From the NCBI GenBank assembly GCA_973895155.1, contig OZ316895.1:680435-744434 (forward strand): a stretch of DNA of 64,000 nucleotides. Reading direction: 5' to 3'. Positions 13,787-64,000 of the stretch are shown one piece after another. How positions within the stretch are numbered: the first letter of the stretch is position 1; every line of letters starts with the position of its first letter. Made by a program: the position numbers and the translations under genes. The DNA comes from Marsupella aquatica (Eukaryota > Plantae > Marchantiophyta). A model generated the notes under the pieces. It was not told the DNA's origin and did not search any database. It saw only the letters and a list, made by a program, of their open reading frames with translations.

Positions 13787-13880
13787 TCAAACCCCTAATC
13801 ATTCTGCAAGATGAAACAATCGATAGTTAAGTTCTTCAAATCCCTCATCATTCTGCAAGATGATACAATCGATCGTTAAG
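13786..13880. repeat. 49-bp-period tandem duplication of a 3' splice site in the 5' leader of the SGS3-like gene
   Basis: ttcaaacccctaatcattctgcaagatgaaacaatcgatagttaag and ttcaaatccctcatcattctgcaagatgatacaatcgatcgttaag. On the - strand each copy reads CTTAAC...catcttgCAG. Confidence 0.75.
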
Positions 13881-14871: not shown

Positions 14872-14910
14872 TGCCAACTGTGGTGCCAACTGTGGTGCCA
14901 ACTGTGGTGG
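14872..14910. repeat. 12-bp tandem repeat (TGCCAACTGTGG)x3
   Basis: Directly visible; lies in the presumed promoter region of the SGS3-like gene. Confidence 0.85.
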
Positions 14911-16289
14911 TCGCACCACGGTTACTTCAGTGCATTACGACGTCTTATATATTAAGAAAAATTGCAAAATAATGGCACCTCACAGGAGGCCCCTGAGAGC
15001 AGCACAGCAAGGCAACCGGGTACAACTGGGGGATTATTATTTTTGGGCAATGAAAAATTAGTGGGGTCATGGCACACTGTATGCTATTGTGTTTCCTGCA
15101 AAATTGGGGCCTCTTACGGTTCTGGGCGTGACTGGTCGCGAGGGCCTTACAATTGGTGCTTGACAAGTCATGACTGTTGTCTTGAACCACAACAATCCCA
15201 GGCACAGTCAACAGTCAGATATGTTTCATTTTTGTCTTGTAGTGACGATGTAACTGATCTTTTTTCAACTATTGCACACTATTTGTAAGATTGAATGGCA
15301 TAAAGTACAAGGGTACAAAAACATCACATGGCTGCAAAGAAAATAGGGTTCGTTAAGACAGTGAGATAAAATACAGAAGTAAAAGTTCAGCTCATGCAAA
15401 GAAAATATGTTTCACACAAATCTATGATACCAAAGAGTTGTGCACATCCTCACTTGCCTTTAGGGAATGACACCTATATCAATTAGAACCATAAACTTAG
15501 AAAACAAAACCATGGGGAGATGTTAAAACAGGAGGTGTCCATATTGTTAAGAATCATTTCTGCTTCACATGAGCCTCATGAGTAGAGATATAATAGCTCT
15601 AGAATAGAAATTCCTGGAAAATTGCCTAAATGCGTTGAATGCACCCTATTGAAAGCTAAAGTTAGTGGATAAGCCTCTAGTTTGTGACTCTAGGGCACCA
15701 CCAAAATATGTGTGCCTGGAATAAAAGATGTGACTGGAGTGCACCACCAAGATGTATGTGCATGGAAAGAAAGAGGTGCATCGAGATAATGACATATGTT
15801 AAAACTATGACATGCATGGCGGTTTTTATGATCATTTCATTAACATTCAAAGAATGGGCATTGAGACTTGTGAAGCAAAAACAACAAAGAGAAAAGTTGG
15901 ATAGGACAATAAAAATATGGTAATATCCTGTTTACAATTATAGAGTGTGGACCATAATGCCCCCCAAAACAATATCTTTCGCTCAAGCTATAAGAGCCTT
16001 TAATTTACTTGCCATAGAGACCTGGTAACATGAAGCTGTAAGTTCATTATGTGTTTGAAGTGAACTTCATTGAAAAACATACTAGCAGCCACTAGATGCA
16101 TGTAAAGCACTCCTTCTTGGTAGGTAATTCCCACAAATAAAATACCCTTGAAGCTCTTGGACATTCTTTGTGGAAGTCACACTCCTTGGAGGGCATTCCA
16201 TTACACACTGCCTGACATTATTACAGGTGAACCCAATTAAACCCTCCAAAATGCATTTTAAATTCCATATTATAGCCTCATTTTTAGAA

Positions 16290-32851: not shown

Positions 32852-33282
32852 CCAGGTTTGGACTTGCCCGGCAAATAGAGACTTTAGAGTCCGTCAACCG
32901 GAAACCCAGACCGTCCCGGCCCAGGCGATCTTTTCCCAGGCCCGGCCATGACCTCCTGGCCCACCTCCCGGCCCCGGCTGGCTCACACCCCACCCTGACC
33001 CTGTCCCGGCCTGTCCCGGCCTGTCCCGGCCCAACCCCCGGCCTGTCCTGGTCCATCCCCTGGCCTGTCCTGGCCCTGACCCCAGCCTGTCCCGGCCTGT
33101 CCCTCTGGGGGTCCCGACCTATCCTGGGTGGTCCCGGCCTACCCCGGCCCCACCCCACACCCGGCGCGGCCTGGGTCTGGGGAATAACAAGGAATATCTG
33201 GCATTTGGGCCGATTTTTGCCCGGCAAATGCTGAGTTTACGTGCCCGGCAACTCGACAAGTTGCCTGTCACTTCAAACCTGG
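32852..33282. mobile_element. hAT-like MITE, copy 1 (431 bp)
   Basis: Ends CCAGGTTTG...CAAACCTGG, flanked by 8-bp near-identical direct repeats caccacag/caccacat. Subterminal TGCCCGGCAA motifs; C-rich low-complexity interior. Confidence 0.75.
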
Positions 33283-34796: not shown

Positions 34797-36778
34797 TTTT
34801 TTTTTTTTTTTTTGGTGTCCAAAAAAATCACTCAAGTGTTTATAGGTGTTTTTTAAAAAATCACTTTAAGAGAAATATACACACTTTTTATATACAAAGG
34901 GACCAAACAGAGTACAAATGAACAAACAAAAGAGGGCCCAAGTGGACAAAACCAATCGAAAAAGAAGTGAGCAAAAGGGAACCACTAAACACCAAGAAAG
35001 AGGAACTAAAAGTAAGAAATGAACAATAGGGAACCCCTAAAAACCAAGAAAGAGAGAGAGACTAAAACTAACCCAAGCGGACCGAGGTCCTCATCATTCC
35101 TACTGATTGTGGCAAAAAGCTAATGGTCCACATCAAGAGTCAAAACTAGATCGGCAAGTGGGATTGGAACATCCTCAAGGGGAGCTAGCCGCTGCGGAGG
35201 CACACTAGCACCCACTGTAAGAGATCGACGATAGATGGCCCGAGCTTGAGCACGCTGTGAGGTGACTGAAATGCGTTGGTGAAAGTGCGTGGTCAAAATA
35301 GAAAGTGGGGGTCCGGTGGGACCCATTCGGCCATGAACATCCCGGGCAGCTTGCCGAAGAAGCCCATCAAACTGAGGATGAAGACGCCCAAATAGTTCCA
35401 CAGCAAGGGGGAGGAAGCTGTCGGATGAAGCTCGTGCAGCATATTTGGCCTCCTTCGTTGTTGCCGCACGTGACGCTGCTGCCCCTGCCGTAGTTGCCGC
35501 TGTCCCAATGATGTCTTGGTGCAATGGGTTTGCCACCACAACATCTGCCAAAGTACGTTGACCCTCACGGACCATGGTAAGATCCACCCGTAACCGCTGT
35601 GATGGAGGACCAGGTAACTCGAGTACCACCTCCCGCCGCACGCATACCAAAGAGCCAGAGAGAACCTGAGCAGTCGCATCTCGCACAGCGTCGTGAACAA
35701 TAATGGTTTCACCTCCCAAACTGCACCGAAGAAGATGGACACCTGTGGCATCACAAGGCTTCCCACAAGTGCAAGAAGGAGGTAACCCTGCAAGAAGTGG
35801 GTGGGGCAGCCCCAGACGAAGACGCATGGCTGTGGAGAACTCCGTTGAAGACATCCGCAAATGAGGAATGACTGGATTGGCCTGAAGCCATCCACCTACG
35901 CCCTTCCCTCCGGAAGAAAGAATCCGAGCTCGGTCCGTGTCAGGTGCCTCGGAGAGGATGCTGGAAAGGGTGAAAGTGTGCATACGCCCAGCGAGGTCTG
36001 CCTGAAGACGAACGGGATCCAAGGATAAAAACTCCTGGAAAGAAGGTAACGCGGCGCGAACGGGATCTGGTAATGAGGACCGCGCTGCGCGCAAATGAAC
36101 CTGAAACGGGAGGGAACCCTCCTCTACCTCCATGAGAGATGAAAGTAAAAAAGGGCGATCCTCAATAAGAAAACGATCGGCCAACAACGAGAAGGCGGCC
36201 GCCCATGCACCCAAAAAGGCCAAAGGTGCAAGGCTCTCAATGGAAGTAAGCCCAAAACCACCCTGCGAAATAGGAAGACTGAGTTGTCGATGAAGCCACG
36301 GAGATGAGAGCAACGTACCCGGACCTAAAAGAGAGGCCAGGGTCTGACGAATGGAGACATCAAATGCTCGAAGGTGGAGACAAAGATCCTCGGTAGGGGG
36401 ATGCGTCCTAGCCAGATAAGACGCACGAGGGTGGATGCACCTCAACAACATCCCAAATGCTGCCTAAGAATCTGCTAACTTAGGGAGCATAGGAGTATGG
36501 GCTAAGGCAGCCTGTATAGAGTCAGCGATGAAAGATGAGCAAAAGGAGGCGGTACCGACTGGGGAACCAAGGACCCGAAGACCATCGGCTGGACGTAAGA
36601 ACCCTGGGGGAAGCACAAGATCAGAGGGTAACCCAGCTGGACTCCATGCACGACTCTTCACAGGCTGAACTCGTAAACCGAGGCCCATCAAATGGGTGGA
36701 AAGAGTGGCGAGGGCAGAAGTAACCGCGGCAGGAGGACCAATGATGTGGGTGTCATCTGAAAGGGAGGGGAAGTCCAT
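34797..36778 (-). mobile_element. 5'-truncated non-LTR retrotransposon with restriction-like endonuclease (CRE/R2-group-like)
   Basis: RT C-terminal part (SLSDDTHIIG, GLRVQPVKS, LRVLGSPVG, LPISQGGFGL), then CTCG..HLLRC zinc motif, HDAVRD, RVDL...DVVV and KEAKY...FLPLAVELFG (PD-(D/E)xK RLE). One in-frame TAG at 36464. 3'UTR and poly(A) seen as a T-run at 34797-34813. No TSD found. Confidence 0.85.
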
Positions 36779-44090: not shown

Positions 44091-44343
44091 TTTCATCCTT
44101 TGTTTCTTTCGATCCTGTCATTCGTTGTTGCACTCTCTCGGTCGGCCCTCGATTGATCAGCTCTTGTTAGACTCTTCGGCACCTCTGCCATCCTCTCGAT
44201 CGCATTCCTGCTCTCCTTGTTGACACATCTGCCACAGTGCTCACGTCTTGAGTGCTGTTTTTATTACGTCACTGATGCCACTGCAGATTCATCAATCAAC
44301 TGTGTGCGAAGCAAAACTGACTCTTTCTTACACTACCAAAGCA

Positions 44344-44494
44344 CCGGGGGATGGGGCCGGGGGACGGGGGTGAAGTGTCAAACTCGGGTCGGGGCTGGGA
44401 CCGGGGGATGGGGCCGGGGCCGGGATGGTCCGGGTGCCGACTTGCCGGTTGACGGCCTCTAAAGGCTCTATTTGCCGGGCAAGTCCAAACCGGG
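44344..44494. mobile_element. One-ended fragment of the hAT-like MITE family (reverse orientation)
   Basis: ccggttgacggcctctaaaggctctatttgccgggcaagtccaaaccggg is the reverse complement, with few mismatches, of the left end of 32852-33282. Confidence 0.75.
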
Positions 44495-44507
44495 GATCGG
44501 AATGTAG

Positions 44508-46579
44508 GTATAGACCGATGGGCAGCCTACGGAGGTTATTGCGCACAGAACGGAGGTTATTGCGCACTGAACGGAGCCTACGGAGGTTGTTGCGCACGGA
44601 ACGGAGCCTACGGAGGGGTTTGCGCACGGAACGGAGCCTACGGAGGTTATTGCGCACTGAACGGAGCCTACGGAGGTTGTTGCGCACGGAACGGAGCCGA
44701 CGGAGGTTATTGCGCACTAAACAATCCTTTAGTTCATTCATACAATCCATCAGGGAGTCACCATTCCTCTGTGTTTCCCACAGGGAAGCTGATAGTTACA
44801 TTACTAAAGGCTCGAGGCATCCGAGGCGATGAGATTCATGGTTTTGGTAATATCTGTATTGCACCCTTGTCTTTCTATCTTTCTAGGAGCAAATGACAGT
44901 CTTAGCCGTAACCCTACTTCCGCCGGTCCATGATTCGGTGTGACAATATCTTCCTGATTTTAGAATTGTAAACAGCATTCCGTCAGAGTTTGATCATTGA
45001 CGACTACATTTCCCAACCTGCAACCTGAATTGCTGTTCTGATTTAGAATCTGAAAATGCTCGTACAATCTGCAGGAAAGGCGGACCCGTATGCCTTGATC
45101 AAGGTCGGTGGAAAGGACCATGCTCAAACTGCGAAAAGCGTCGTTCGCAAGGGTATGTTTGGTTTATTTCGTACTTTTCAAGTCCACCGGGGAAATTTGG
45201 AGTTCGCGTTTAATTGTTCCTCAAGGCGTAAACCTTCATAGCTTGTGTCTTGACCCGAAAAATTTCCTCCCCAGCTGCTCTTAACTTGTCGTTAGCTGTA
45301 CTAGGCCTCTTGGCTACTCCTTGGCGATCACAAGTACCCTGATAGATATACTCTTAATAATGCAAAGCTATCCTGCCTGTGTTTCAATGCGTGCACCGTT
45401 GTTGTGGAACAGATCGACAGTGCTCACAGCTTTGGAATTAGTGTCATCTAGTGGCGAAGATATATTTCCATACACGCACTTATAGCGATCAAAGATAGAA
45501 TGCTTGGCACAAATCCTCACTCACTGGCACAACACAGATTTTTATTTTTATATGACGAGTTTCCAAGCTGGAACCTTGTTCACAGTGACTGACACGTCGT
45601 TTTCTCATATGTTAGTGGTGCTTACAAGCCATTGTCCTATTTAGCTTATAAGCTTCGTTATTAATGTCTGCGGCCTGGTAGCGGATGCGATCAATTCACC
45701 AGTATGATGTTGTGCTCGCAATGCTTTCTAAATGAAATGTTCAGAACTTTAGCTTTCTCGAACTTTAGCTTCAGTATTGACATTGCACGGCTAAAAGGGA
45801 AACGGGCAGGTCATAATTTTTCCTCCGATCTCGTATCCCACGTTTCATATTTGTCTTAGTAATGTTGTATTTGTCACTGTATCTCTTGAGGCGTCCACTT
45901 TCTGAACTACTTCTGGGTCCTCTTGAAAGGATATAGGCCTCTTAATGGCGGCTGCTAATTAAACAGTGGGTCCTCCCTTCGAAATTCGAGATTTTCTTAA
46001 CTAGGGAGTTCTAATGCAGATGCTGGAGAAACGCCAGTGTGGAATCAAGTCTTTACCTTTCCGATCAGGAATCAGCATGAGGAGCACAACCAATTGCGGA
46101 TCTTTCTTTACAACGAGAATCATTGGCCACGGAAAGACAACATGATAGGATATATCTCGTAAGTTCAGATACTGCATGACATCATTGGGGACCATCAAAG
46201 GGGAGTTGTAGTTTGCTCTTATGGCTTTGTTAGGATGTCCTAAATGGTGGTTTTTGACAGTTCTCGGGCTTTTGCACCGTCTGTGTTATCCAAGGAAAGC
46301 ATACTAACAAATGCGAATTTCTGTGGCAGGATGAAAAACATGTGTTATTATCTCAGTTTGAACGGAAATACGGTCCAGGAGAGATGGTATCCAGTTTATC
46401 CAGGAGAGGGCTCCATCAGAGGTGAAATATATCTCGGTTTCCATTTCATCCAATGGCACCTTCAAAGCTTCTTTGTGAGACAATTCTCGTTATGGGTGAT
46501 ACTAACCCTGGTGAGAACTCCCATAGGGAGATCGATTGGAAAAATATGGCACAATTGCTCCAATTGGGTATTGGAGTAG
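44508..46579 (+). CDS. Single C2-domain protein (start codon not identified; possibly pseudogenised)
   Basis: Phase-compatible exons ..-44846, 45075-45152, 46020-46158 and 46330-46579 give GKLIVTLLKARGI..GKADPYALIKVG..AKSVVRKDAGETPVWNQVFTFPI..QLRIFLYNEN..DNMIG..RWYPV..RGEIYLGFHF, a complete C2 pattern. Confidence 0.7.
44526..44718. repeat. 30-bp minisatellite (GAACGGAGCCTACGGAGGTTRTTGCGCACK), ~6.5 units
   Basis: Directly visible tandem array, including one shortened 21-bp unit. Confidence 0.9.
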
Positions 46580-48704: not shown

Positions 48705-51026
48705 CTAGCACTCAATACGAACTGCACCACTTTGGGAAGACACAAACTTTGGCATTCTTCTGACATCTTCCATACACTGGATCACATCCCCGACTTGAAA
48801 ATCCACCCAGTCCTTAAGAATCATCCCACATTCAGTACCCTTGACGACTGTCTCAACGTCATCCTTCTCTCGTCTCAGAGAAACGCACGGCCCTTCAAAT
48901 AAAACGTCCCCACTGCGTAACACCCGGATCGTGGAGCTCCGAGTAAGCTTACCATCCAGCACTCGACAACCGGCAATTTTAGTGGCACCCCGACACTCTC
49001 GACCCTTTCCTTTGATCTCAAATACACTTAGAATCTCCGCTTGACCGGCTACCTGGGTCTCCTTTTTACCAGCAGCCATAGAAACAATCATGTTGCCAAT
49101 GTCCTCCAAAAGATGATAGATGATGCGATGCTGGCATACCTTTATTTTGGCTCGCCGAGCTGCAGCATCAACAGCACCGGCCATTGCTCGCACATTGAAT
49201 CCCACTACACAAGCTCCACATGCTTCTGCTAGGGCAACATCAGATTGAGACACTGGCCCAACTCCAGTATGTACTATGTTCACAGCAACCTGCAACAGAC
49301 ACACCCACGTCCATCACTAATTTCATCAAACAAGAAAACTCCCAGAAGGTATAGCACTTGGATCTCAACAAACAAGGACTCCTGCACAATCAAAGCGATG
49401 CCCAAACACAAGGCTACAAGAGCCACCCTAACGAAAGACCCTAGCTTCTATATTACATCAAAGTCTAGAACGAAAGTTTCTCTGGTGTCATTAGGACAAT
49501 TGTTGTACCATTTTGGTGCCACCACGATGAGTTAACAACGACTGAATTGTGGACACAACGAAAAGAATACTTGCAAAGAGAACTCCCAAAGACTCAGCCC
49601 ATCATGACATTAGACTTCGATCATTTTTAACTATCCCTTAGAGCTTCAGGAATAATTTCCTACGGCAGAGTCTCTAAATAGATGTCAATCTGAGGCTTTA
49701 GCCTCTTAAAGGATAGGATTGTGTAAACAACTCATCCACAACTTTTTCACTACACGTTACCTGAGCGCTACTGAGGCTCTCCAGAGCTTGACTGACAGCT
49801 TGAGCTGTCCCCTTCACATCCGCTTTGACAACGACAACCATCTCTCTTTTCTCAGATTTATCTTCGTCTGATACTTCAGAATTTGCGGCAGAAGCAATTG
49901 CATGCTGTTTAATCAGCCTCTGAAGACGACCCTCCTCCCCTTGGATAGTTCTTTCATTACTAATCGTCCTTGCCTGTTCTTCAGTAGCAACCACTAAAAC
50001 CTCATCACCTGCTTCTGGAAGACCTTTCAATCCATCAATTTCCACTGGCGTAGACGGCCCTGCTGCAGGAATTTGCTTGCCTAACATGTCTCGTAGGACC
50101 CTTACTCGGCCCCATTGGTTACCAACTACCACGTACTGACTGGGACGCAGTGTCCCCACCTTCACTATCGCAGTTGCAAGAGGTCCTTGCCCTCGATCAA
50201 TTCGTGCCTCCACAACCACAGCATGCACCTCATCCTCAGAATTGGCCACGAGATCCATCATTTCAGCTTGTAGTAACAACGCCTCCTCCAGCTTGTCTAA
50301 ACCTGTGTGCTTAGTGGCTGAGACCTCAACTACCTGGACCTCTCCACCTATGTCCTCCAACTCCAGTCCCTCAACAGCCAATTGCTGGCGAACTCTTTCA
50401 GGGTTTGCTTCAGGCTTGTCACACTTGTTGATGGCAACGACGATTGGCACTTTGGCTGCTAGAGCATGTGACATAGCCTCCCGTGTCTGTGGCATAACAC
50501 CATCATCTGCTGCAACGACCAAAACTACTATGTCTGTCACTGCTGCCCCTCTTGCACGCATCGAGCTAAATGCTGCGTGACCAGGTGTGTCCAAAAATGT
50601 CAGAGACGCCCCAGAGGGCATGCTCACTACAAAGGCACCCAAATGTTGGGTAATTCCACCTGCTTCCTTGGCAGCCAACGAGGTCTGCCTAAGCGCGTCC
50701 AGAAGGGATGTCTTTCCATGGTCAACATGGCCCATTACTGTGACAACTGGAGGACGAATTTTCAGCACTCCTTTTGGCACTTTTAGGGTGTCGAAAGGAG
50801 GCGGCTGAGTAGAGAGGATCAAAGGGGATTTCGTCGACTTCACATCTTTGACAAACGTCTGCGATTGCAATCCATTCTCGAGCGAAGAGAGGGCTCTCCA
50901 TAACAAAATTGCTGTCCGTCCGTCCGTCCGTCCGCACAGCTCTTGTCCGCAGGGAGAAATCGCACGGGACAGCGGAAAAAACCGGACGAGATTCTTAATT
51001 GTTTTCAGTTGCTTGGTAGACCACAT
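48705..51026 (-). CDS. IF2: Translation initiation factor IF-2, probably mitochondrial, 2 coding exons, ~616 aa
   Basis: Exons 51026-49761 and 49289-48705 (phase 0). G-domain motifs RPPVVTVMGHVDHGKTSLLD, GGITQH, FLDTPGHAAF and NKCD; C-terminal IAGCRV..G..ECG. Basic, acid-poor N-terminus resembling a mitochondrial presequence. Confidence 0.92.
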
Positions 51027-54000
51027 GATAACCGGGAGACGCGATTGCCGGAGCGACGTTGAAGTGACCTGCAGGAGCCATCATCGCAAATGAATTAGTG
51101 AGTCGAATTATCGAAAAAGCCCGACAGAGAGACAGATTTCTGTGAGCTTTTGACAAAATGCTCGTACAGTAGTAGCGAACGAAAACAAGACAAGAGCGTG
51201 AGCAGAGGGCAACCTACAGTATTGCATACTCCGTCGATAATCGTCCAGAGTAGAAGGATCTCTTCTCGGTCCCACGGCAAAAAAGAGAGTGAGTAGAGCT
51301 AAGATTTATTTCCTCGCAGGAGCTCGAACGAGAAAATGCTTCGAACCTAGTTTATGACCGACTTGAACGAGACAGAGTGTCGATCAAAAGACCTAAGTGG
51401 ATTCCTATGCGGACGGATGGAGATTGGGCAGAATGCTTCAACCTAATACTGTGATTGCCAACAAATTGACAAAAATCAAACTAGAGCTCCACAAGACATT
51501 GAGAGGAGGGGAGACTGCCGTAGAGCACAGCGAGAACGAATTGACGCATCAATCGACCGCTCAAGACTGAATGTGAGAGAAGGAGAGACTGGAGCACAAC
51601 GAGAACGACTCGTTGAATCAAACGAGCGCTCCCGAAGCCTCAGAGAAACAAATGGAGACGAGAGCAAAACGAGCGCTCCAGAGCTCTCTTCGAGACAAAT
51701 AGACTAGAGACTAGAGCACAAGAAGAGGACTGCTATTTAACAAACGCTTTTGCAAACACTAGAACCAGAAATAACGCTATTTAGTACACTGCCTCGCTTT
51801 TCTTTTCTTTTTCCCTTGAAAATTGAAAGCAGGCCCATCCAACAAAGGATACACTTCGAGAGCATGCATTTTATGTAAGGTAGTCACAAGGGGCTCTCCA
51901 GCATGCATTTCTATGTAAGGGGACCACAAGGGGACCAGACCAGGAGAGAGAGAGGATTAACCAGAACCCCAAAGCTGGCAACCAAGGGCTGAAAAGATAA
52001 TCAATACTCCCACCACTACACCCCACCCACACATACTCTCCTGTTCTAGACTCATCCTCTGGCCAACTGACCAAAGCCAGTTGGTTACTGCCTTGTTTTT
52101 TTGCTTTTTTACAGGGCTAGCCTGAATACCCTTTCTTTGAATATGAATACCAGCTTATTTTTTGAGATGCAAATTTCAGCCAAATTCCACCTCCCCAAAA
52201 ACTGTTAGTCCACTTTTGGCTAACATTCCGGTACATTTTTTGTATGCCATTTGTCACTTTCCCACCTAATCATGGGCCCCATTTGCCAGAATCTAATGGT
52301 TATCTGTAAATCTAGGGATATCTGACAGCCCATCTGACAGTCAAGACGTAATCCAGGATAAATTGTCAACGAATATTCCTAGCGTCTCCTCCCTTAGAGC
52401 TGCAAACATTTGCCACACTGGCTAAAAATAAAAAACCGTAAAAACATGCTGATGAATAGGACAAAAAATTGCATTTCCCAGGTTGCAAGCTCCCTAGCAG
52501 CAGCTCCTTCACAATGTAGGGTTAGGATGTCAATACCTACTAGATGCCCATTCAGCTCCTTGCATTCAATCTATTTAGTTCACAGATCTGCATTAAATCT
52601 TTAGTAGTTGTGCATACTCACCCCACTGCACCCTTGTCATTTTCCAATTCCACCCCAGTTTTTGGTTATGGCCCCATAGTCACGGTCTAGAAGCTTCACT
52701 CTACAGTACGTGTAACCCAAAAGAGTAAGGTTTGACCGCAATTTACTAGTAAGATTACTTAAAATTATCACTCTAGCCTGAAATCAAATGCCCTTTAGTA
52801 CATTGCCTCACTTTTTATGCCACTCCTTGTTTACAGAATTACATGAGTTCTAGTCTGAACATCCAAGACCTGCTTGAAATAGAGAACTAGTTAGTTGGGA
52901 CATATACAATGGTCCGGATGGACCCATGATCTACTAATTGTAGCAGACTGAGGAGGACCCATACTCATCTAAGTAATTCTGTGGGTGAATCTATCCTTGG
53001 CTTAGTTTTAGTAATGGACCAATATATGCTCAGCTCCTGGCTCAACTACAAATGCAGGGTAATTTGATGAGTAAATCAACAATGTTGTACACAAGAAACA
53101 AACAAGCACACATTACACCGATGCCATGGATAAGTGTTTCATCTTTGTCAAGACTACATCTTGAGAATACACAAGGTCTACTAACCACTGGTCACCATGA
53201 CCACACCAAGCCTCCAAATACAAGCTCCAAGATTGCTAGCCTAGCTCCTAGCTTTCACAAATGAGCATGAGTCCCACCATGGAGCTCTCCCTTGCTCCTC
53301 TATATGCTAGGCATGTCTAATTATCTTCAAGACCCTAATGCTGATTAGAATAAGTGAGATCAACCCAAGTCTAAGAGTTAACCATACATTATCAAACACT
53401 ATAATACACGATGCCGCGCTTTTTGTGTTCATCGTCCGTTTATGAAATGCAGGGTGGGCGGGAACCAACCATGGCCCTTAGATTTTTTTGCAATTTTTTA
53501 GATCCCTTGGATATGCCCCAAACCCCCACCCAAGCCCTTTACAAGCCTTGCTCAGGGCATCGGGCCAAGTGATTAAAGCTCATTGCTTCAGTCCTGAGGC
53601 ATGCCCCTGCCCTGCCCTGTCCCCTGACTCTTAGGCTTCCCTAGCCTAGGTCATGCCCTGCCTTGCATGCAATATTCTGCCCACAACCTTGGCTCCCACT
53701 TTGTACATAATGGGTACCTTTTATTGTTGTTATAATACATGTTTGATACAGGTTATAGTACATGTGTTAGGGTACATAGTATACACATAAAGTATTTTTT
53801 TGGCATGGAGCATTAAAGGAGAATAGGTTAAGGCATAGAATTAATTGACCAGAGTTTGAGATTTTTGGCATGGAGCCAAAAAAGGGGAAGTGATAACATT
53901 GAAAAAAAAATTGGCTCTTTTTTCTTGAGAATGGACGGATGGTTATCTTTTCTTCCCAAAAATTTCTTTTTTAATGGTCTTGGAGGGAAAGGAAAACGTG

Positions 54001-55553: not shown

Positions 55554-58500
55554 TGTTAGACTCTACCTGGTGACCGGACGACCGGACCAACCAGTCACCG
55601 GACCGGCACCACTACATGTACCAAACGCCACAGACTATACATGATTCATTCTATTCTCACACGTTATCAGCACGAGGACTCAGCCAGCGGAGCCAAGAAG
55701 AAAGAAGAAAATACCATGGAAGATTGAGATTTTTTTTATGAATGTTGCATAGGGGGATCGACAGGATGACTTCAGAAAAGAAGTAATTCAAAGGAGGAGA
55801 CCATCATCGAATCAGAACAGGTTGCAGAAAACGAAAAGGGGCATACGGACATCGATAAGGAATTAGAGAGTAGAAACACAACGAGGCAAGAAACTGAAAG
55901 TCGATCGCGGCTGCAATGGGCAATTGAATAGAGACCGAATGAAGTGCAATCGTAATGTTGAAAGAATGAGGATATATACTTTCGCACCATCCCGCATATA
56001 AAAAAAAACTAGAGGAGCGAGCGACTCCGATGGTGGCTGATGCTGATGCGAGCCACAAAGATCCTACCGTGGGATAGGATTGCACTGGGCAGGATCCGAA
56101 GAGAATCAATAAGGACCCTGCAGGCGAAAGGGAAATTACCGCAGGGAAGTCAAGCAACAGACTCGCAAGTGAACGCCGAATGCAGGAATAGAAGATTGCT
56201 GAGAGAAGCAGGATAAAAGAGAAATAAATAAGGAGGTGCACATCGATTGCAAGCGCAACAGTCAGGGGAATCTAGGATCGAATTGAGAAAGAAGAAGGCA
56301 CTGCGCAAACCAGCCAAAGAAAAGAACCAAGAAATATTTTTTCATAAGGACACAACATAGAGACAGCCAATCCAGGACGCAACGATCGAGAGAAAAGCTC
56401 GAGGCAATTCAGGAACGAGTCCGAGAAAAAGAGGGAGAAACCCATAAACTCATAAGGACAAAGATCGAAGGCGAGAACAGCATTGGAGTCGAGCCCACGG
56501 AAAGAGCTCGACAAGGCGTGAACGAGATACAAACCGGCGCAACTGCCAACAGGATTACGCAACATTAGCACGCAAGAAATCGACAAAAACACGAGCAAAC
56601 TGTCACTAATTGCAAACCTCTTTAATTGCAAAATCCATCAAAGAGATTTCAGTTACAAAGGAAAAGTTGCACTTAACCATAACTGCAAAACCTAAGCGCA
56701 CATCCACATAACTGCACACCGTAACCAAGAAAAATTTACTTTACAAAGCCACATGTGCACTTAACCAAGGCACGAGTATATTACCACCCATAACTGCACA
56801 AATTGCACAATTCCATTACTGCATAGTTTAACAAAGAAAAAAGCAAATACAAAAGAAACTTTGTAGTTAACCAAATAGCAAGGAAAACCTAAATCCTAAG
56901 TGCAAACCCTAAAATTGAATTCCGGATTTGCATGCTCTCTCCACCCAGCCCCACTTTGCATGCCGCAGAAATGTGCTTCGTCGTTTCTTACTATACCTGC
57001 TAGTATATAAGCCTCCACTACCATTAAAAGGAATCAAGCCACCAACCCGATGACCAACCTAGAGAAATTAACATTTCCAGCCCTAGACATCGATGGTAGC
57101 AACTACCTGGAATGGTCAATGAACCTCAGAGAGAACCTTACCTCGATAACCCTACTCCCAGCTATAGGGATGGCTCAACCTATACTAGCTGGCGAACCCC
57201 AACCAGACCCGTTAACTAAAGCCAACGAATCTAAGGCCCTTGTATTCCTTAGACGTCATATCCATAGATTCCTACAAAGACAATACATGCACCTCTCAAC
57301 CCCTCGTGAACTATGGACAGCGCTCCAAACCCGATTTGACCACCAAAAACTGGTTGAACTACCTAAAGCCAGGCAAGACTGGCTAAACCTGCGGGTCCAG
57401 GACTTTACCTCTATTTCAGCCTACAATAGCAAACTCTTTAGAATCCCTTCAACCCTCGCCCTCTGCGGCGAGCCGATCACAGACAAGGATCTGCTAGAGA
57501 AGACCTTGTCGACATTTCATTCATCGAATGTGTGGCTATCAACACAGTATCGAAACATGAAGTTCGGGCAATACTCCGAGCTCATAGCCCACCTCCCAGT
57601 CACCGAAAGAAACCAAGCACTTCTCTTAGTAAACTCTAGAAAACAACCTGTGGGCACACTGCCCTCAGGACAACAGAATGAAACCCATAACATAGAAAAT
57701 GTTGAACCCTCCACATCGAGGCAAGGCATTAAGCGCACTAAGAATGACAACCAAAGAAACACCCACAATAAGGGGAGTTTCTATAACCAACGTCCACAAT
57801 ATAACTCCCAACGGACCTTTAGAGGACGTGGAGGACGTGGTGGACGAGAAGGACGAGGAGGACGCGGAGGACGCGGAGGACGCGGAGGACGCGGAGGACG
57901 CGGAGGACGAGGAGGACGCGGAGGACGAGGAGGACGCGGAGGACGAGGAGGACGTGGTGGATGAGAAGGACGTGGAGGACGCGGCGGTGGAAGAACATAT
58001 AACAACAACCGTAGAAACGATTGGTCACAATCCCGAAAACAACGGGAATGACCGAAATGCCATGAATGTGGCATGACAACCCACCTAGCGAGAAACTGTA
58101 GAATCCCGCAACACCTTAGAGAACTATACCAACGGTCCATCAAGGATGGACAAACCTCTAGGCCACCACCCCGTGAAACCCACGGGGCGTTCATGGAGTC
58201 TAGTGACCCATTCCAAGACTTTTCAGCCCTACCTGTCCAACCCGAGGCACACTTAGTGGCAAGTAGCTCCACTACACCAGATTTAAATAGTCCAAGCACA
58301 TGTATTATTGACAGTGCGACCACGCATACTATCCTCAGGGATAGGCACCTTTTCCACAAGATTACACCCTTACGTAGGTCCCTCACCACTATCAATGGTC
58401 CTAGCCAAATAGAAGAGGGCTTCGGCCCAGCTTCTATTAGACTCCCGCAGGGGACCAAAATACACATAGAATCTGCCATTTTCGCCCCAAACGCAACCCG

Positions 58501-59388
58501 TAATCTCCTCAGTTTTAGAGATATACGAGCAAATGGACTACATGTCCAGACGGGCGATACAAGAGACCAGGAAGTGATACACTTGGTTGAAAATACCCCT
58601 ATGGGGAAATTATTAAAGAAACCCTTTTCTCGTACCCCTGCGGGTTTTATGTAACTCATATTGAATGCCTGCATAACAATGCCAACACAAGCAAATTGCA
58701 TGCGCTTTGGCATGCACGCCTCGGCCACCCCGGCCAATCAATGCTAACGAAAATCATTAAGAATTCAAGAGGCATTCCAATCAATACACGCCACATTCCA
58801 GCGAGCACACCATGCACTGCATGCTCACGCGACAAACTAATAACAAGGCCCACGATATCAAAATTGCCAACTAAAATACCCCAATTCTTGGAAATCATCC
58901 ATGCAGATGTTTGCGGGCCAATTAACCCTCCATGCGGACCTTTCCGCTACTTTATGGTATTAATCGACGCATCCACTAAATGGTCAAATGTGACCTTGCT
59001 TTCAACGAGGAACATGGTTATGCCTCGCATTTTGGCGCAAATCTTGTGCGTGAAAGCACAATTCCCAGATCACCCCATTAAGACACTAAGGGTGGACAAT
59101 GCAGGGGAATTCACATCCGAAACATTTGACGACTTTTGCACATCACTTGGCATTGACGTACAATATCCTGTACCTCACGTGCATTTTCAGAATGGATTAG
59201 CTAAAGCGGTCATTAAACGCCTTCGGTTAATTGCACGCCCATTACTAATGCAGTCAAAACTCCTCGTCTCAGCATGGGGACATGCCATATTACAGGCTAA
59301 TGCATTAATCCAATACCGCCCATCGGCTTTTAATACCTATAGCCCATACCAAATCGCTAATGGTATCAAACCTGACCTATCACATCTT
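55554..59388 (+). mobile_element. Ty1/Copia LTR retrotransposon (Bianca-like), decayed and 3'-interrupted
   Basis: Putative 108-bp 5' LTR TGTTAG...CACA (55554-55661) followed by CGTTATCAGCACGA. Gag from 57050 (LEKLTFPALDIDGSNYLEW), CCHC knuckle CHECGMTTHLARNC, protease IIDSATTHTIL, LWHARLGH, integrase IHADVCGP/RVDNAGEF/QNGLAK. Two TGA stops and a frameshift at ~58600. Homology stops after DLSHL; RT, RNase H and 3' LTR are not in the window. Confidence 0.88.
57821..57990 (+). repeat. 9-bp (GGAGGACGM) expansion encoding a poly-RGG tract in Gag
   Basis: About 18 in-frame GGR/EGR units upstream of the zinc knuckle. Confidence 0.9.
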
Positions 59389-59663
59389 TGTTCATTTAAC
59401 CCCAATTTAAGGAAACTGAACTTTGGAAATTCCAAAAATCACTAAATATTATTATTTTAATAAAAAGGGGGCGACATGACGCGTGGCTGCGCGTGAAACC
59501 TTGAAAATGACTGCAACGTCACATTTTAACCAATCCAACTTGACGGGACCAAGAGACATGCTCACGCGAATAATAATAATAGAGAAATAAATCTTTGAGA
59601 TCCTTTATATATGATAACCAATATATAAGGAGTTTACAAATAGTTTCTAGAACGACATACAAA

Positions 59664-60392
59664 TTAATCTGATCTCATGCCGACTATTATTTTAGAAGCG
59701 TCCAAAATTGGGCGTCTGTTAAATTGCTCTACTAGATATCTATCTCCATGCCTCTGAATCATAGGGTCTTCCCATAGAGTATGATTATAATCATAATCTC
59801 TAAAAATAGATTTAACTGACCAATCTGGATAATCTCTTCCATTGGCAATGACAAGCGGCTCACAAGAGTTTGCTAGCTTGCTAAGATACGGAATCAGCAA
59901 GTTAATCAGGAAACTGTCATCGACCGACCCAAAATATTTGGGCGGAAATAATGATCCAACAACAGGATCTAAACAAGCATGAAATGCATCGTATTCGATA
60001 AGCATTATATTTTGCTGCAGATACGCCTTCGTATAAATTCCAACCTTCTCAAAACACTTCAAAAATATCCGCTTATTTGATGTCACCCCATCGCATAAGT
60101 AACAATGAGACTAATCCCAAATATACTTAAATGAGGCCATTTCCATCGCAGTAAAAATAGATACTAAAATCTGATCTAAAAGGTTCTTCCCAAGAGAGGA
60201 CCAGATCCCTACATCGAAATTCTCAAAACAGAATCTCAAGAATTCGTGAAGATGAGGCCTTGGAAAAACGTATATATTCCCAATCCGAATTCCAGTTGAG
60301 ACCGCCATCAGTCGGGAATGCGGTGCAGTGTAACAGAGTAGATGCTCCACGTCTAAAACTATGAGCCCATTTTCTCTGTTGCAATGAATCTC
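59664..60392 (-). pseudogene. FCP1/NIF (HAD) phosphatase-like module 3
   Basis: Acceptor ctctacag|GAG (phase 0). LIVLDVEHLL..VFPRPHLHEFLRFCFENFDVGIWSS..YIWD*SHC..IFLK..NIMLIE..DDSFL..LIPYLSKL. One in-frame TAG at 60111. Confidence 0.75.
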
Positions 60393-60453
60393 CTGTAGAG
60401 AAACACAAGAAGATGCATGAGCCTATATGGATGTTGTCACGCGAATGGTCGCG

Positions 60454-61185
60454 TCACATATTACAGAGAAAACATCCTCTACACTCTGGCCATTGATAAG
60501 TGACGTCTGTTGAAGTGCTTGATAAGAACTTGATCCACATGTCTCTGCACCACAGATGCTCCCATATATCCTCGTTCAGATCCCAATCTCGATGTAGATT
60601 TCTAATCGACCAGATGGGATAATCGAACTTGTTAGCGAACGCAAGACAAAGCCCTGAATTTGATAGCTTTCGTAAATATGGAATGAGGTCATCCCTCAAA
60701 AAGACATCATCCAACGATCCTTGAAACGACTTAGCGAACAATAATCCGCATACAGCTGTCTGGCATGTATGGGAAGGACAGGCATCAATCTGGATTATAT
60801 TCTCTGGTCGATAATCTTGAAACATATCACGTAGTCTCTCGATAGATTTGAAGACAACAGTCTTATAATTTTTCTTCACATAACCAAGATTCCAGCAATG
60901 ATCCCGCGTGAACACATATATCAGTTGTGACAGGTCGATGCTCGACAACACTTCTGAAAGTATCTGATAAATTAGTTTATCATCGAGAATAGACCAGACC
61001 ATCACATCAAAATGATCATAACAGAATTTTATAAGATCATGAAGATGCGGCCTCGGAACGACACATAGAGATCCGATACGAATTCCGGGTGTCGACTTGA
61101 GCTGAGGAGTATATTTTGAAACAGAGCACAGGAAGTTTTCCAGTCCTAAAACTAGAAGTTGATGCGACCTGCTCCACTTAGACAC
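60454..61185 (-). CDS. FCP1/NIF (HAD) phosphatase-like module 2 (open frame, catalytic motif degenerate)
   Basis: Acceptor tttacag|GTG (phase 0). LLVLGLENFL..VVPRPHLHDLIKFCYDHFDVMVWS..VFTRDHC..VVFKSI..ENIIQIDACP..DDVFL..LIPYLRKL. Confidence 0.75.
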   Translation of the reverse strand: MSKWSRSHQLLVLGLENFLCSVSKYTPQLKSTPGIRIGSLCVVPRPHLHDLIKFCYDHFDVMVWSILDDKLIYQILSEVLSSIDLSQLIYVFTRDHCWNLGYVKKNYKTVVFKSIERLRDMFQDYRPENIIQIDACPSHTCQTAVCGLLFAKSFQGSLDDVFLRDDLIPYLRKLSNSGLCLAFANKFDYPIWSIRNLHRDWDLNEDIWEHLWCRDMWIKFLSSTSTDVTYQWPECRGCFLCNM

Positions 61186-61310
61186 CTGTAAATGAACAAT
61201 TCGATTCTCATATTATGCAATTGCAAACAACCACGCGATCGGGCGCGTCACTCCCAAAAGTTCAATTTCAATCAATTTATAAATAATAATTGATAATAAA
61301 CAATAAACGT

Positions 61311-62216
61311 TTACTTATTGGACTTATCCCGGGCTTCTATAGCACGGTCTTTTTCGGCAGATAAGTATTTCATAAATTCGTCAAACTTTTCTAAATGGTC
61401 TTTATTCCCCTGATTACGAATGATCATGTTTCTCCTCCAAAGATTCGTCTTATCAATATAATCTTTCTCAAGATTTTCTTGAGAGAACGTTAGAATCCCA
61501 TATCCACTAAGGAGCTCGCGGAATGTCAACTTGTCAATTGACATGTCGCATAGATATGGATATAGTTTCTTTCTAAAAAATAGGTCATCATCGAGCCCAA
61601 AATATGCATCGGGATACAGCGATGAATAGAAGTCATTAAGGCTCGTCTTATATGTAGCGTCATCGATAAGAATGACATTCTCGATGTTGTAATCTTTAAT
61701 ATCGGCGGCAATGTCCGAGAGATATTTGACAAATAAAGGGATGTCATTATTATTCTTCCCAATAAGTCGAGTTGATTCTTGTCCCCATATAAATTTAATA
61801 CGTTTCAAAACTTCGGGTCGAAGTATCAGCCTTACACAAGATAGAATATTCCGTTTGAACATGCACGACCAGATCACAATGTCGTATAGATCTGCCACCT
61901 TCTCAAGAAATTCCATTAAATCAGGCCTTGGATAGATAACCTTGTGCATCTGTCTCACACCCCTTGACCGAATGGGCATCCCAAGGCTGATCTTCTCTGA
62001 CTAGATAAGTACCCGATTCAGATCGAAAATTACAAGTCTCTTCTGAACCGGTGACTTCTTTGCCGATGGATTAGGCACCATCTGTACCTGTGATTTTTGT
62101 GCCGCAGGGTTTGGAGAACGTACTAGAACGGTCTATTTGTTTCCTGCCTCCGGATGATCACCGGACTTCCGGACTGGTGCCTTCGATACTCGATTAGGGG
62201 GTTTCGGGATAGGCTT
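61311..62216 (-). pseudogene. FCP1/NIF (HAD) phosphatase-like module 1 with P/K-rich linker
   Basis: Acceptor ttttacag|AAG (phase 0). KRLVIFDLNRVLI*..IYPRPDLMEFL..YDIVIWS..FIWGQES..LFVKYL..ENVILIDDATYKTSLN..DDLFF..LYPYL. Two in-frame TAGs lie upstream of 61979. Confidence 0.78.
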
Positions 62217-62302
62217 CTGTAAAACATTAAGAAATGAAAATAAGTTTATAACGCGAATGGTCGCGTGACTACAAAGAGAGACACTAAAATGAAGTGTATT
62301 AC

Positions 62303-63090
62303 CTGTACAAGACGGTCGTTCAGTGCTGGAATTCCGCCGGAAATGTCAATCATAGCAGCACGGATCCCGGTAACTAGGTTACTTGCGGACGTCAGCTTGC
62401 GGAAGTCCATGTCAAATAACGACAAGACTATCTCCCTACGGAATTTCTCAATTTGATCCGCGGCAAAATTAATTCTGTTTCCTTGACACAAGCACTTGGC
62501 GTATCTCAAGATAAACACACCACAACTGTGGCCGTCACTCTGGTGAGGAATATCATTCCGATATATCCGTTCCCAACCTGAGAGATCCAAGTTGACACCA
62601 GTTCTCTAGCCAATTTCGTCGGCGTAGTACTTCCCAACAATATCTAGCACCCCAGGATTTTGTCGATTATGAACTAGAGAATCTAGGTACTCCAGCCATT
62701 TCTCCTTCGGATACAAGACTACCAATGACCAATGTTCTTTCACAGCATTGTGTACTGGAAAGACCAGTTTGTCGTATTCACTGATTTTTAGCGGAAACTC
62801 CTTTGTCCAAGCTGCTCTCTCCTCGTCGAAAATGGTAGGATCCATGGAGAGAAGCTCAAAATGGTGTGTTGGAAGAATTTGACAAGGTCTGAATTTCCAA
62901 CTCTATCGAGAATCAGTTCGAGAAAACTCAAATAAGCGTTAATTATATCATCGGTGAGCAACTCGCGCGGTCTCAAACACATCATATGTTTCCTCTTGAT
63001 CGAGTGTTGTAAGAACTTGGTCAATAGCTCTTCCATATCCTTAGAAGGATCAAGGCATTGATCTATTCGACTAGCCAAATTTTCAAAAAA
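62303..63090 (-). pseudogene. Ulp1/SENP (peptidase C48) SUMO-protease exon
   Basis: CLRPRELLTDDIINAYL..WTK..VFPVH..HWSLVVL..YLDSL..IPHQSDGHSCGVFILRYA, with the His-Asp-Gln-Cys residues intact. One frameshift at ~62870 and one TAG at 62606. Bounded by acceptor ttttgcag (63091) and donor CAG|gtaata (62302), both phase 0. Confidence 0.85.
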
Positions 63091-63254
63091 CTGCAAAAAA
63101 CAGAGATTTCAGTACGCCTTCAAATAACGTACTGAGGTTTGTGATGCCTAGACAGGAATCACTCGGCCGGTTAAGTGGGTAAAGCAGGAAGGCACCCTAG
63201 GAACACCTTAGTATAGTGACAAAACAAGGAAAATATAAACAATTAGGGGCAACC

Positions 63255-64000
63255 ATGGAACCCGGGCAGAGGCCGGAGGTAAGGCTAAGGGTGAAAACCC
63301 GATTAGGGTTAGGGCGCGTTAAGCGTCGGCGGCTAGGAAGGATCAACGGGAAGAAGGACCGGCAGAGGAGAGGGGTAAGGAGCGCTTGCAGGAGATGGTG
63401 GCTCATTTGCGAGCACGAACTAGGCAGACGACTACGGGAGGCCAACTACTGTCAGCTGCTTAGGCAAGCACTCGGGGAGAGAGTAGATACCGACGATCGA
63501 CCTAAGGAGGGTATGAGCAACGTCAATCAAGCGGCACATTTCTGGGGATGCCTGTTCGAACGGGCAACTGAGTACATCAAGACTTACGAGGACGAGGAGT
63601 CAGAAAGGGCAGCTCGAGAACGGCAGGAGCTCGCTCGATTGTGGGAGCTGCAGAAGACGGCTTTCTTAGGAGGCGAACTCATCAAGGACGAGTTCCTGTG
63701 GATGCCTACTTCCAATCAACTCGACGATCTTCTGTTTTGCAAAGACAGCGTCGTCGGCATCCGAGAGGCCATCAAGAACTGCAACGACATACACTGGGAA
63801 TTAAAGGGTAGCACGGAAAGGTGGACCCAGGCAACGGTGCTAGGAGAAACCTCCACGGCAGCAGAGATGAAGAGGAAGGGAGCCATCAACGATGAAGCCA
63901 CCCCGGCAAAAAGAACGAGGTCGGCGGCACCAAAGAAGCCAGCCGAGCAGCAGAGCAGGAGGCAGGGAGAAGCCGAAGAGGAGGAGGTCGATCCCATCAA
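63255..64000 (+). CDS. Unknown ORF of at least 248 codons running off the window (probably transposon-encoded)
   Basis: Manual translation from ATG 63255 is stop-free to 64000 (MEPGQRPEVR...AAHFWGCLFERATEYIKTYE...KRKGAINDEATPAKRTR...). It is absent from the ORF track, presumably because it has no stop in the window. Confidence 0.5.
   Translation, partial: MEPGQRPEVRLRVKTRLGLGRVKRRRLGRINGKKDRQRRGVRSACRRWWLICEHELGRRLREANYCQLLRQALGERVDTDDRPKEGMSNVNQAAHFWGCLFERATEYIKTYEDEESERAARERQELARLWELQKTAFLGGELIKDEFLWMPTSNQLDDLLFCKDSVVGIREAIKNCNDIHWELKGSTERWTQATVLGETSTAAEMKRKGAINDEATPAKRTRSAAPKKPAEQQSRRQGEAEEEEVDPI

What the first reader, a model, noticed from the sequence alone, without database searches (positions are those of the whole stretch)
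59389..63100. Ulp1 SUMO-protease + triple FCP1/NIF pseudo-phosphatase cassette that interrupts a Copia element: candidate transposon-borne anti-silencing system
Seen: a C48 protease exon with an intact catalytic set is followed by three diverged tandem FCP1/NIF-like domains. The block begins exactly where Copia integrase homology stops (~59389), so it behaves like a later insertion or rearrangement. None of the three domains has the DxDx(T/V) motif (DLNRV, GLENF, DVEHL), so they are probably phospho-binding or decoy domains. Known: Ulp1-like proteases are carried by plant Mutator (KAONASHI) and other DNA transposons; FCP1/SCP domains act on the Pol II CTD; SUMO contributes to heterochromatin. 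Inference: a mobile element that couples deSUMOylation to phospho-CTD-type recognition. I do not recall this architecture being described, but I cannot search to confirm.
Basis: partly seen in the sequence, partly recalled or inferred. Interest (0 to 1): 0.85.

Follow-up and report, generated by a model that had tools for sequence, protein, structure and literature searches.

The report
Plant transposon with protease and pseudo-phosphatases
This is a broken copy of a multicopy plant mobile element, sitting inside an older retrotransposon, that carries a SUMO-protease-type exon and three phosphatase-fold exons lacking the standard catalytic motif; it is likely a DNA transposon whose cargo may help it escape host silencing, a pairing not found in the papers searched.

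Summary
A C48 exon (SENP2 match E 1e-14; His, Asp, Gln, Cys present) and three NIF exons pass Pfam and fold tests. The block is multicopy, with a sharp end at 59398 (not 59389): contigs from three runs start there with unlike flanks while Copia contigs continue. At 63140 a third, very high-copy element cuts it, so the transposase and other end are out of reach and the superfamily is undetermined (Mutator-like most likely). This copy is dead (4 stops, 2 frameshifts). The NIFs belong to an unnamed clade (30 database relatives plus these three); no relative with C48 on the same chain was found. Missing DxDxT and tandem NIFs are also normal in host plant NIF proteins, and the nearest solved sequence is UBLCP1, not a Pol II CTD phosphatase, so phospho-CTD recognition is unsupported. 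Splice phases favour Ulp1 joined to one NIF at a time rather than a triple-NIF protein (inferred; no RNA). New hints for anti-silencing: a palindrome in the spacer before each NIF exon and near the end (8 hits versus 0.07 expected), and no CpG depletion (1.03 versus 0.61). New variant of Ulp1-carrying transposons; function untested.

The parts
57011..59397 (+). Target: Copia retrotransposon (gag, protease, GAG-pre-integrase, integrase core), broken, cut off at 59397; its RT/RNase H half is not in the window
   Evidence: Pfam Retrotran_gag_2, Pol_BBD, gag_pre-integrs, rve; Copia contigs of 3 of 3 runs continue past 59397 with one common other sequence, agreement 0.98-1.0
59398..59412 (.). Terminus of the element (reads AACCCCAATTTAAGG inward); downstream end relative to its genes
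   Evidence: Contigs begin at 59398 with unlike flanks: X1 record 4, X3 records 11 and 12, X4 record 19; X4 loose ends in 5 contigs, median 135 letters, agreement 0.53. No second copy in the window beyond chance
59422..59436 (.). Small subterminal palindrome, 24 bases from the end
   Evidence: Self-comparison
59479..59494 (.). Palindromic motif ACGCG-N6-(T/G)CGCGT, subterminal copy
   Evidence: 1 mismatch
59664..60392 (-). NIF3 exon (UBLCP1-like HAD fold; DVEHL, motif IV degenerate); internal TAG at 60113; ends in TAA
   Evidence: Pfam NIF E 2.8e-9; phase-0 acceptor at 60392
60439..60454 (.). Palindromic motif, copy before the NIF3 acceptor
   Evidence: spacer folds with z -2.9
60479..61185 (-). 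NIF2 exon (GLENF, no nucleophile Asp); frame break near 60550 in this copy
   Evidence: Pfam NIF E 5.3e-11; model pLDDT 88, SCP1 Z 19.1, rmsd 2.0, 163 aligned; extra base at 60550/60551 in nearly all X1 depth
61233..61248 (.). Palindromic motif, copy before the NIF2 acceptor
   Evidence: this spacer does not fold better than shuffles, z +0.76
61311..62216 (-). Pro/Lys/Ser-rich linker plus NIF1 exon (DLNRV; keeps first Asp, Ser, Lys, DD); internal TAGs at 62135 and 62003; ends in TAA
   Evidence: Pfam NIF E 1.8e-9; phase-0 acceptor at 62216
62251..62266 (.). Palindromic motif in the 86-base intron between Ulp1 and NIF1
   Evidence: intron folds with z -3.1
62303..63090 (-). Ulp1/SENP-type C48 protease exon; His-Asp-Gln-Cys present; frame break near 62868 and TAG at 62608 in this copy; phase-0 acceptor and strong phase-0 donor
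   Evidence: extra base at 62868 in 1035 of 2659 depth in X1, 58 of 2758 in X2
63109..63135 (.). 8-bp-stem hairpin (different sequence) in the intron before the Ulp1 acceptor
   Evidence: z -3.4
63140..64000 (+). Third, very high-copy element starting TGTGA (likely an LTR) that interrupts the cassette; open ORF 63201-64000 without Pfam match
   Evidence: Summed depth 57,775-116,300 in X1 against 1,066-3,339 on the cassette; X6 record 30 stops matching at 63139; one X2 contig runs on with other letters after 63139

Best explanation
The block is a dead copy of one end of a multicopy plant mobile element, likely a cut-and-paste DNA transposon, that landed in a Copia retrotransposon and carries an accessory gene in which a Ulp1-type SUMO protease exon is likely spliced to one of three UBLCP1-like NIF exons that would act mainly as targeting modules. 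Shown: the domains, the multicopy state, the sharp end at 59398, the decay of this copy, the cut at 63140, the intronic palindromes and the lack of CpG depletion. Inferred: (a) DNA transposon, because the cargo has spliceosomal introns and the end has no poly(A) or LTR; Mutator-like is the best single guess (about 0.45; CACTA, KDZ and Helentron-like types share the rest); (b) alternative last exons (about 0.5); (c) the protease removes SUMO from chromatin, repair or transposase proteins, and the NIF domains, two of them without a usable active site, bind phosphoprotein or peptide partners as Tim50 does; (d) the palindromes are sites for an element-encoded dimeric DNA-binding protein that keeps the element unmethylated, as VANC does for VANDAL (about 0.3).
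For: Multicopy: single contigs on the cassette have depth 749 and 852 in X1 against 46.6 for a flank-bearing contig, 473 and 505 against 10-15 in X3, 1668 against 88 in X4, i.e. roughly 16-48 near-identical copies (rough, depth is not a clean copy number); summed depth 1,066-3,339 against 45-63 in the unique stretch 55903-56504 in X1. Held by 7 runs under 5 organism labels, 4 runs with half of the words or more. Sharp end with varied flanks, and Copia continuing elsewhere. C48 is a common cargo of plant DNA transposons: 120 counts in 1846 active MULE clusters and 77 in 775 CACTA clusters (PMC12973397 Table S6 rows). The best acceptor of each of the 4 exons is phase 0 and the one strong donor (Ulp1, 62302) is phase 0, whereas the only donor at the NIF1 end is phase 2 and coincides with its stop. 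NIF fold is solid (pLDDT 88). Clade of 33 rows, SH-aLRT 99, with 0 of 14 scorable motifs reading DxDx(T/V). Palindrome: 8 strand matches at 4 sites against 0.07 expected, all in non-coding parts of the cassette, the placement described for VANC motifs (PMC5735166, passages). CpG o/e 1.03; 0 of 103 same-size windows in 1-55000 reach it, highest 0.89.
Against: No transposase, second end or target-site duplication was seen; no genome is held. The end sequence does not fit the starts I recall for MULE (G), CACTA (CACTA/G) or Helitron. Splicing is inferred from a crude score on a decayed copy; a single polyprotein through sites lost in this copy is possible. The motif could be an RNA hairpin for splicing (3 of 4 intron or spacer stretches fold at z about -3). 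High CpG could reflect recent or foreign origin instead of protection; one 2-kb bin of the window (2001-4000) also reaches 1.01, all 4 internal stops are TAG (as C-to-T decay would give), and a minority of copies have a CpG change inside the subterminal motif (59491). The function of transposon Ulp1 domains is unknown even in Arabidopsis (PMC13317346, PMC4948706 section 15). Whether the family's young copies are free of the 4 stops was not visible (tables cut).
Confidence: 0.6

Rival explanations
1. One reading: one protein joins deSUMOylation to reading of the phosphorylated RNA polymerase II tail through three dead FCP1/SCP domains.
For: The fold matches SCP1 best of all solved chains (Z 19.1; Foldseek E 7e-10); the catalytic DxDxT is absent in all three.
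Against: Tim50 (Z 17.1), CTDNEP1 (17.7) and UBLCP1 (16.6) score nearly as well, so the fold names no substrate; by sequence UBLCP1 is far ahead of SCP1; stops and splice phases argue against one chain; host DxN proteins lack the motif too.
Confidence: 0.08
2. Same mobile element, but the cargo serves transposition or repair (SUMO removal from the transposase or repair proteins) or is near-neutral captured sequence; the palindromes are transposase sites or splicing signals, with no anti-silencing role.
For: Ulp1 occurs in many unrelated transposon groups and has been tied to transposition (PMC2836005, passages); the motif core CACGCG resembles the FHY3/FAR1 site of Mutator-derived proteins (recalled, not confirmed by a call); most spacers fold as hairpins.
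Against: Neutral cargo does not fit 30 relatives at under 50% identity with long open frames and a conserved C-terminal extension; it does not explain the CpG retention across exons (0.84-1.08).
Confidence: 0.35
3. A rolling-circle element (Helentron/Helitron2-like or Replitron) that gathered the exons, with the palindromes as leftovers of earlier ends.
For: A small palindrome lies 24 bases from the end; Replitrons reach high copy numbers in lycophytes and ferns (PMC10288648, passages).
Against: No CTRR after any palindrome or at the end (sequence); flanks differ and are not T-rich in 2 of 3 seen; 'protease' and 'peptidase' occur 0 times in the Replitron paper.
Confidence: 0.13
4. A fragment of an endogenous giant DNA virus, since such viruses encode NIF phosphatases and Ulp1-like proteases.
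For: Viral NIF structures match (best E 2e-10, 14-17% identity); CpG is not depleted.
Against: The DxDxT-bearing group (20 of 21 scorable) is a separate clade; canonical GT-AG introns; one sharp end reused at many sites; no close match in IMG/VR (chance DNA hits only in 62, 89, checked in 66, 93).
Confidence: 0.05
5. The unit is complete at 59398-63139, a 3.7-kb non-autonomous element with very short inverted ends (both ends read AACC(C/T)CA inward).
For: 6 of 7 bases match between the two junctions, 7 of 7 with a variant end seen in X1.
Against: No target-site duplication and no Copia remainder after 63139; the Ulp1 exon starts at an acceptor with no first exon or promoter; the run-on seen after 63139 is one short contig ranked among the best supported in X2 (its depth is not shown).
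Confidence: 0.1

Closest known systems
KAONASHI / C48-MULEs and VANDAL non-TIR Mutator-like elements (PMC13317346 passages; PMC4948706 section 15; PMC5735166 passages)
   Same: Plant DNA transposon with an intron-bearing accessory gene holding a Ulp1/C48 domain; a short motif repeated in introns and subterminal non-coding DNA.
   Different: No NIF domain is reported there; VANC motifs are non-palindromic 8-9-mers in dense tandem arrays, here one spaced palindrome per spacer; no VANC-type domain, transposase or 8-11-bp duplication could be seen here.
CACTA, Ginger1, Zisupton/KDZ and other transposons with Ulp1 (PMC12973397 Table S6 rows; PMC2836005 passages; Zisupton's Ulp1 recalled)
   Same: C48 protease as transposon cargo.
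   Different: The end here is not CACTA/G or TGT; Table S6 lists no NIF or PF03031, only a 'HAD' row with 3 counts in MULE.
UBLCP1 and the host plant DxN NIF family (PDB 3shq; Sphagnum P0014 cluster, Erigeron P0023, Riccia P0091)
   Same: Same NIF/HAD fold; closest solved sequence; host proteins also lack DxDxT and 7 of the 43 long hits have two NIFs.
   Different: The element's NIFs form their own fast-evolving clade with a C-terminal extension (YPxWS...DW...W), more often lose motif I Asp (9 of 14 keep it, against 84 of 93) and motif IV DD (13 of 30 against 80 of 94), and sit next to Ulp1.
Tim50 (PDB 4qqf, 3qle)
   Same: NIF fold used as a binding module (role recalled); second-best sequence match.
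   Different: Mitochondrial import receptor, single copy, unrelated context.

Membership tests
Peptidase C48 (Ulp1/SENP) | Pfam PF02902 above cut-off and His-Asp-Cys triad with oxyanion Gln | tested here: met
Peptidase C48 (Ulp1/SENP) | SUMO-specific cleavage activity | not testable with these tools
   needs an assay; this copy is broken
FCP/SCP (NIF) HAD fold | Pfam PF03031 above cut-off and matching fold | tested here: met
Active FCP/SCP CTD phosphatase | DxDx(T/V) motif I | tested here: not met
   0 of 3 in the window, 0 of 14 scorable in the clade
Active FCP/SCP CTD phosphatase | Closer to SCP/FCP1 than to other NIF subfamilies | tested here: not met
   UBLCP1 E 2.5e-12, Tim50 1.4e-3, SCP-type 1.8e-3 or worse
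Transposable element (any) | Many dispersed copies with a sharp end and varied flanks | tested here: met
   (one end only)
Mutator-like element (MULE) | MuDR-type DDE transposase | not testable with these tools
   beyond the 63140 insertion; no genome; no relative with usable flanks
Mutator-like element (MULE) | 8-11-bp target-site duplication (PMC6446971, passages) | not testable with these tools
   second end not in the window
Mutator-like element (MULE) | Long TIRs, or none in non-TIR families | tested here: inconclusive
   no partner of the end in the window
VANDAL/VANC anti-silencing system | Short motif enriched in non-coding parts of the element | tested here: met
   4 sites, all non-coding; arrangement differs from VANC arrays
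VANDAL/VANC anti-silencing system | VANC-family gene and induced hypomethylation | not testable with these tools
   no such gene in the visible part; no methylation data
CACTA/EnSpm | End begins CACTA/CACTG (recalled) | tested here: not met
   end reads AACCCC
Canonical Helitron | 5' TC and 3' CTRR with hairpin just upstream (recalled) | tested here: not met
   neither orientation of the 59398 end fits
Replitron | Rep HUH transposase and short direct terminal repeats (PMC10288648, passages) | not testable with these tools
   second end and core gene not available
KDZ/Zisupton | KDZ transposase with CxC domains | not testable with these tools
   core gene not available

The most novel reading that the evidence does not exclude
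A second, VANC-independent anti-silencing system of plant DNA transposons: one SUMO-protease exon is spliced to a choice of rapidly diversifying pseudo-phosphatase exons, giving a set of differently targeted deSUMOylases, while an element-encoded dimer bound at intronic ACGCG palindromes keeps the element free of CG methylation; an unnamed clade of at least 30 such domains suggests a whole undescribed element group.
Probability: 0.2. Interest if true: 0.8.

Novelty: new variant of a known kind. Interest (0 to 1): 0.52.

Why it matters
Ulp1 proteases recur as cargo in many transposon groups, yet what they act on is unknown. Here the protease is coupled to exchangeable domains of a recognisable fold, which offers a handle for finding its targets. 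The element also shows a repeated intronic palindrome and no CpG loss, so it is a concrete candidate for anti-silencing outside the VANDAL family. If none of that holds, it is still an uncatalogued transposon cargo and an unnamed NIF clade that genome annotation would mislabel as CTD phosphatase or TIM50.

Tried and rejected
No genome is held, so copies could not be read whole. Word-based homologue searches: NIF2 longer, none; NIF1 near, none; clade profile longer, 1 hit, a moth UBLCP1 fusion; all weak as evidence of absence. No RNA holder listed. Locus scans with the wide alignment could not run. The narrower alignment gave 41 metagenome loci: 39 I compared are mostly AT-rich decayed repeats, several with tandem NIF pieces (L003, L008, L009, L021, L040), only distantly related to the window, with no Ulp1 match and no transposase family among 80 of their ORFs scanned (I chose ORFs from 14 loci). 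Viral contigs: 4 distant single-NIF loci, nothing for Ulp1 or NIF2, chance hits for the end and the motif. Prokaryote genomes: 1 distant NIF. Of the 30 clade relatives, 19 were looked up: none carries an organism or function name, longest contig 5753 bases. A first fold from a 3-row alignment was poor (pLDDT 53) and not used. Earlier scan notes: nothing by sequence, place or the full word sets. Papers not held: PMC9016345, PMC2151751, PMC3226222, so the FHY3/FAR1 site and the 2022 VANDAL-Ulp1 study rest on recall or on a review. PMC5753468, PMC10398659 and PMC12062965 (passages) gave nothing usable on termini, CpG retention or NIF. Rejected: single-copy host gene; cassette as a stable part of a Copia subfamily (junction flanks vary); LINE or processed gene (introns, no poly(A)). 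Repbase itself could not be searched.
Full report
What is there. On the minus strand of 59398-63139 lie four coding blocks. The first is a Ulp1/SENP-type protease: two pieces pass Pfam Peptidase_C48, and read through with X the C-terminal part matches human SENP2 at E 1.2e-14 with His, Asp, Gln and Cys in register. Three NIF blocks follow, each above the Pfam cut-off; NIF2 and NIF3 are 23% and 25% identical to NIF1. A model of NIF2 from a 30-row alignment has pLDDT 88 and matches SCP1 (Z 19.1, rmsd 2.0, 163 aligned), CTDNEP1 (17.7), Tim50 (17.1) and UBLCP1 (16.6). The copy is dead: TAG stops at 62608, 62135, 62003 and 60113 and frame breaks near 62868 and 60550. To the left is a Copia gag-protease-integrase on the plus strand. 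The host is a plant by its neighbours (inferred; organism names are coded).

It is a mobile element. No genome is held, so I laid public contigs. Seven runs under five organism labels hold the stretch or part of it, four with half of the words or more; the best holder may be the source itself. Summed depth on the cassette is 1,066-3,339 in X1 and 3,216-15,370 in X2, against 45-63 and 84-100 in the unique stretch 55903-56504. Single contigs give a cleaner ratio: 749 and 852 against 46.6 in X1, 473 and 505 against 10-15 in X3, 1668 against 88 in X4, so roughly 16-48 near-identical copies (rough). At the junction, Copia contigs of all three runs go on after 59397 with one common other sequence, while cassette contigs begin at 59398 with unlike flanks (X1 record 4 and X4 record 19, probably one locus; X3 records 11 and 12). 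So the end is 59398 and the cassette is an insertion, not part of a Copia subfamily. The 60550 frame break is nearly private to this copy in X1 (extra base in 960 of 1223 depth at 60550 and 239 of 1198 at 60551); the 62868 break is absent from about 40% of X1 depth but the extra base shows in only 58 of 2758 in X2. At 63140 depth jumps to 57,775-116,300 in X1, a contig of X6 stops matching at 63139 and one X2 contig runs on with other letters: a third element, starting TGTGA and likely an LTR, cuts the cassette. The transposase and far end are therefore unseen.

Which kind. Introns and the lack of poly(A) or LTR point to a DNA element. The end reads AACCCC, which fits neither CACTA nor canonical Helitron ends (recalled). 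C48 cargo is common in plant MULEs and CACTAs: 120 counts in 1846 and 77 in 775 active clusters (PMC12973397, Table S6 rows), and also in Ginger1 (PMC2836005, passages); earlier scan notes show it in P-like and pogo elements (unchecked). Mutator-like is my best single guess (about 0.45), but membership is untested.

The NIF domains. A full HMMER search gave 228 relatives at E up to 0.001, 150 listed. In a tree of 160 domains (157 from hits, with 1 under 130 residues left out, plus the window's 3; quick method, no bootstrap) the three fall in a 33-row clade with SH-aLRT 99. Nineteen of the 30 relatives were looked up; none has an organism or function name and all lie on contigs of at most 5753 bases. 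Two of them (P0016, P0038) share the contig length 5753, which hints at tandem NIFs in a relative. None of the 43 longest hits carries C48, but these are host-type proteins and the clade members are single-exon gene calls, so this is weak. Seven of the 43 long proteins have two NIFs. The clade is more decayed than the host family (first Asp 9 of 14 against 84 of 93; motif IV DD 13 of 30 against 80 of 94). NIF2 has no nucleophile, NIF3 has lost motif IV, and NIF1 looks like the host DxN type. By sequence the nearest solved protein is UBLCP1 (E 2.5e-12), then Tim50 (1.4e-3); SCP-type enzymes score 1.8e-3 or worse. UBLCP1 dephosphorylates proteasome subunits (PMC10739866, passages). Nothing points to the polymerase tail in particular.

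One protein or several. With a simple splice score, the best acceptor of each exon is phase 0 (63090, 62216, 61185, 60392) and the one strong donor is at the end of Ulp1 (62302, phase 0); the only donor at the end of NIF1 is phase 2 and overlaps its stop. Most relatives also stop shortly after the domain. The spacers (about 90-125 bases) leave little room for promoters. The simplest reading is a shared Ulp1 exon spliced to one of three last exons. This is inference on a decayed copy without RNA data (about 0.5).

Hints of anti-silencing. The palindrome ACGCG-N6-(T/G)CGCGT occurs at 59479, 60439, 61233 and 62251: 8 strand matches against 0.07 expected, all in non-coding parts of the cassette and nowhere else in 64 kb. 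VANC proteins bind motifs in introns, intergenic and terminal regions of VANDAL elements (PMC5735166, passages), and Ulp1-carrying VANDALs are among them (PMC13317346, passages). A fixed spacer of variable sequence suits a dimeric DNA-binding protein, but three of four intron or spacer stretches also fold as RNA hairpins at z about -3, one does not. The cassette has CpG o/e 1.03 against 0.61 for 1-55000 and 0.80 for the Copia; 0 of 103 same-size windows reach it. Against: one 2-kb bin reaches 1.01, recent or foreign origin would give the same, and the TAG stops and a CpG change in some copies of the motif show that methylation-type decay does occur. I put anti-silencing at about 0.3.

Novelty. 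Four full-text searches pairing NIF, FCP1 or HAD phosphatase with transposon terms found no description (listings only), and the domain table of active transposons from 1007 plant genomes has no NIF or PF03031 (two supplement files searched), only a HAD row with 3 counts. Repbase and subscription journals were not searched, and bioRxiv supplements were closed. Decayed repeats with tandem NIF pieces in metagenome loci L003-L041 suggest that NIF cargo occurs in other repeat families too, without Ulp1 in the stretches seen. Verdict: real, mobile, an uncatalogued variant of the Ulp1-carrying DNA transposons; mechanism plausible but untested; the phospho-CTD idea is unsupported.

Noticed in passing
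window 12209-13786 (-): Intronless 525-aa ORF that by eye resembles a zinc finger plus XS domain (SGS3-like, recalled); no Pfam match and not in the protein collection as an exact sequence.
   Followed up: partly
window 35120-36463 (-): 447-aa ORF that by eye looks like the C-terminal part of a LINE (RTE-like, recalled); no Pfam match.
   Followed up: partly
window 63140-64000 (+): Very high-copy element (depth over 1000 times the unique level in X1) with an open 266-aa ORF only 60 bases from its start and no Pfam match; unusual if this is an LTR.
   Followed up: partly
window 57795-58014: 9-base tandem repeat encoding a long (RGG) run in the Copia gag.
   Followed up: no
L003-L041 (e.g. L007:4588-8468, L040:4033-10861, L033:3583-12009): Families of AT-rich decayed repeats with tandem NIF pieces and a shared upstream coding region of unknown kind; no Pfam match.
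   Followed up: partly
proteins P0117, P0129, P0127, P0090, P0126, P0063: Sister clade (9 rows, SH-aLRT 98) of unnamed 300-400-aa proteins with NIF plus a C-terminal Cys-rich tail; probably another mobile cargo family.
   Followed up: partly
window 48705-51080 (-), 28072-28584 (-), 20331-24701 (+): Ordinary host genes by eye: translation factor IF2-like, glutathione transferase-like, and an S-layer-domain chloroplast protein-like gene (labels recalled, not tested).
   Followed up: no
window 32794-33236 and 44328-44896: Two GC-rich repeats with internal tandem units that share a 53-base inverted segment (I2); probably short mobile elements.
   Followed up: no
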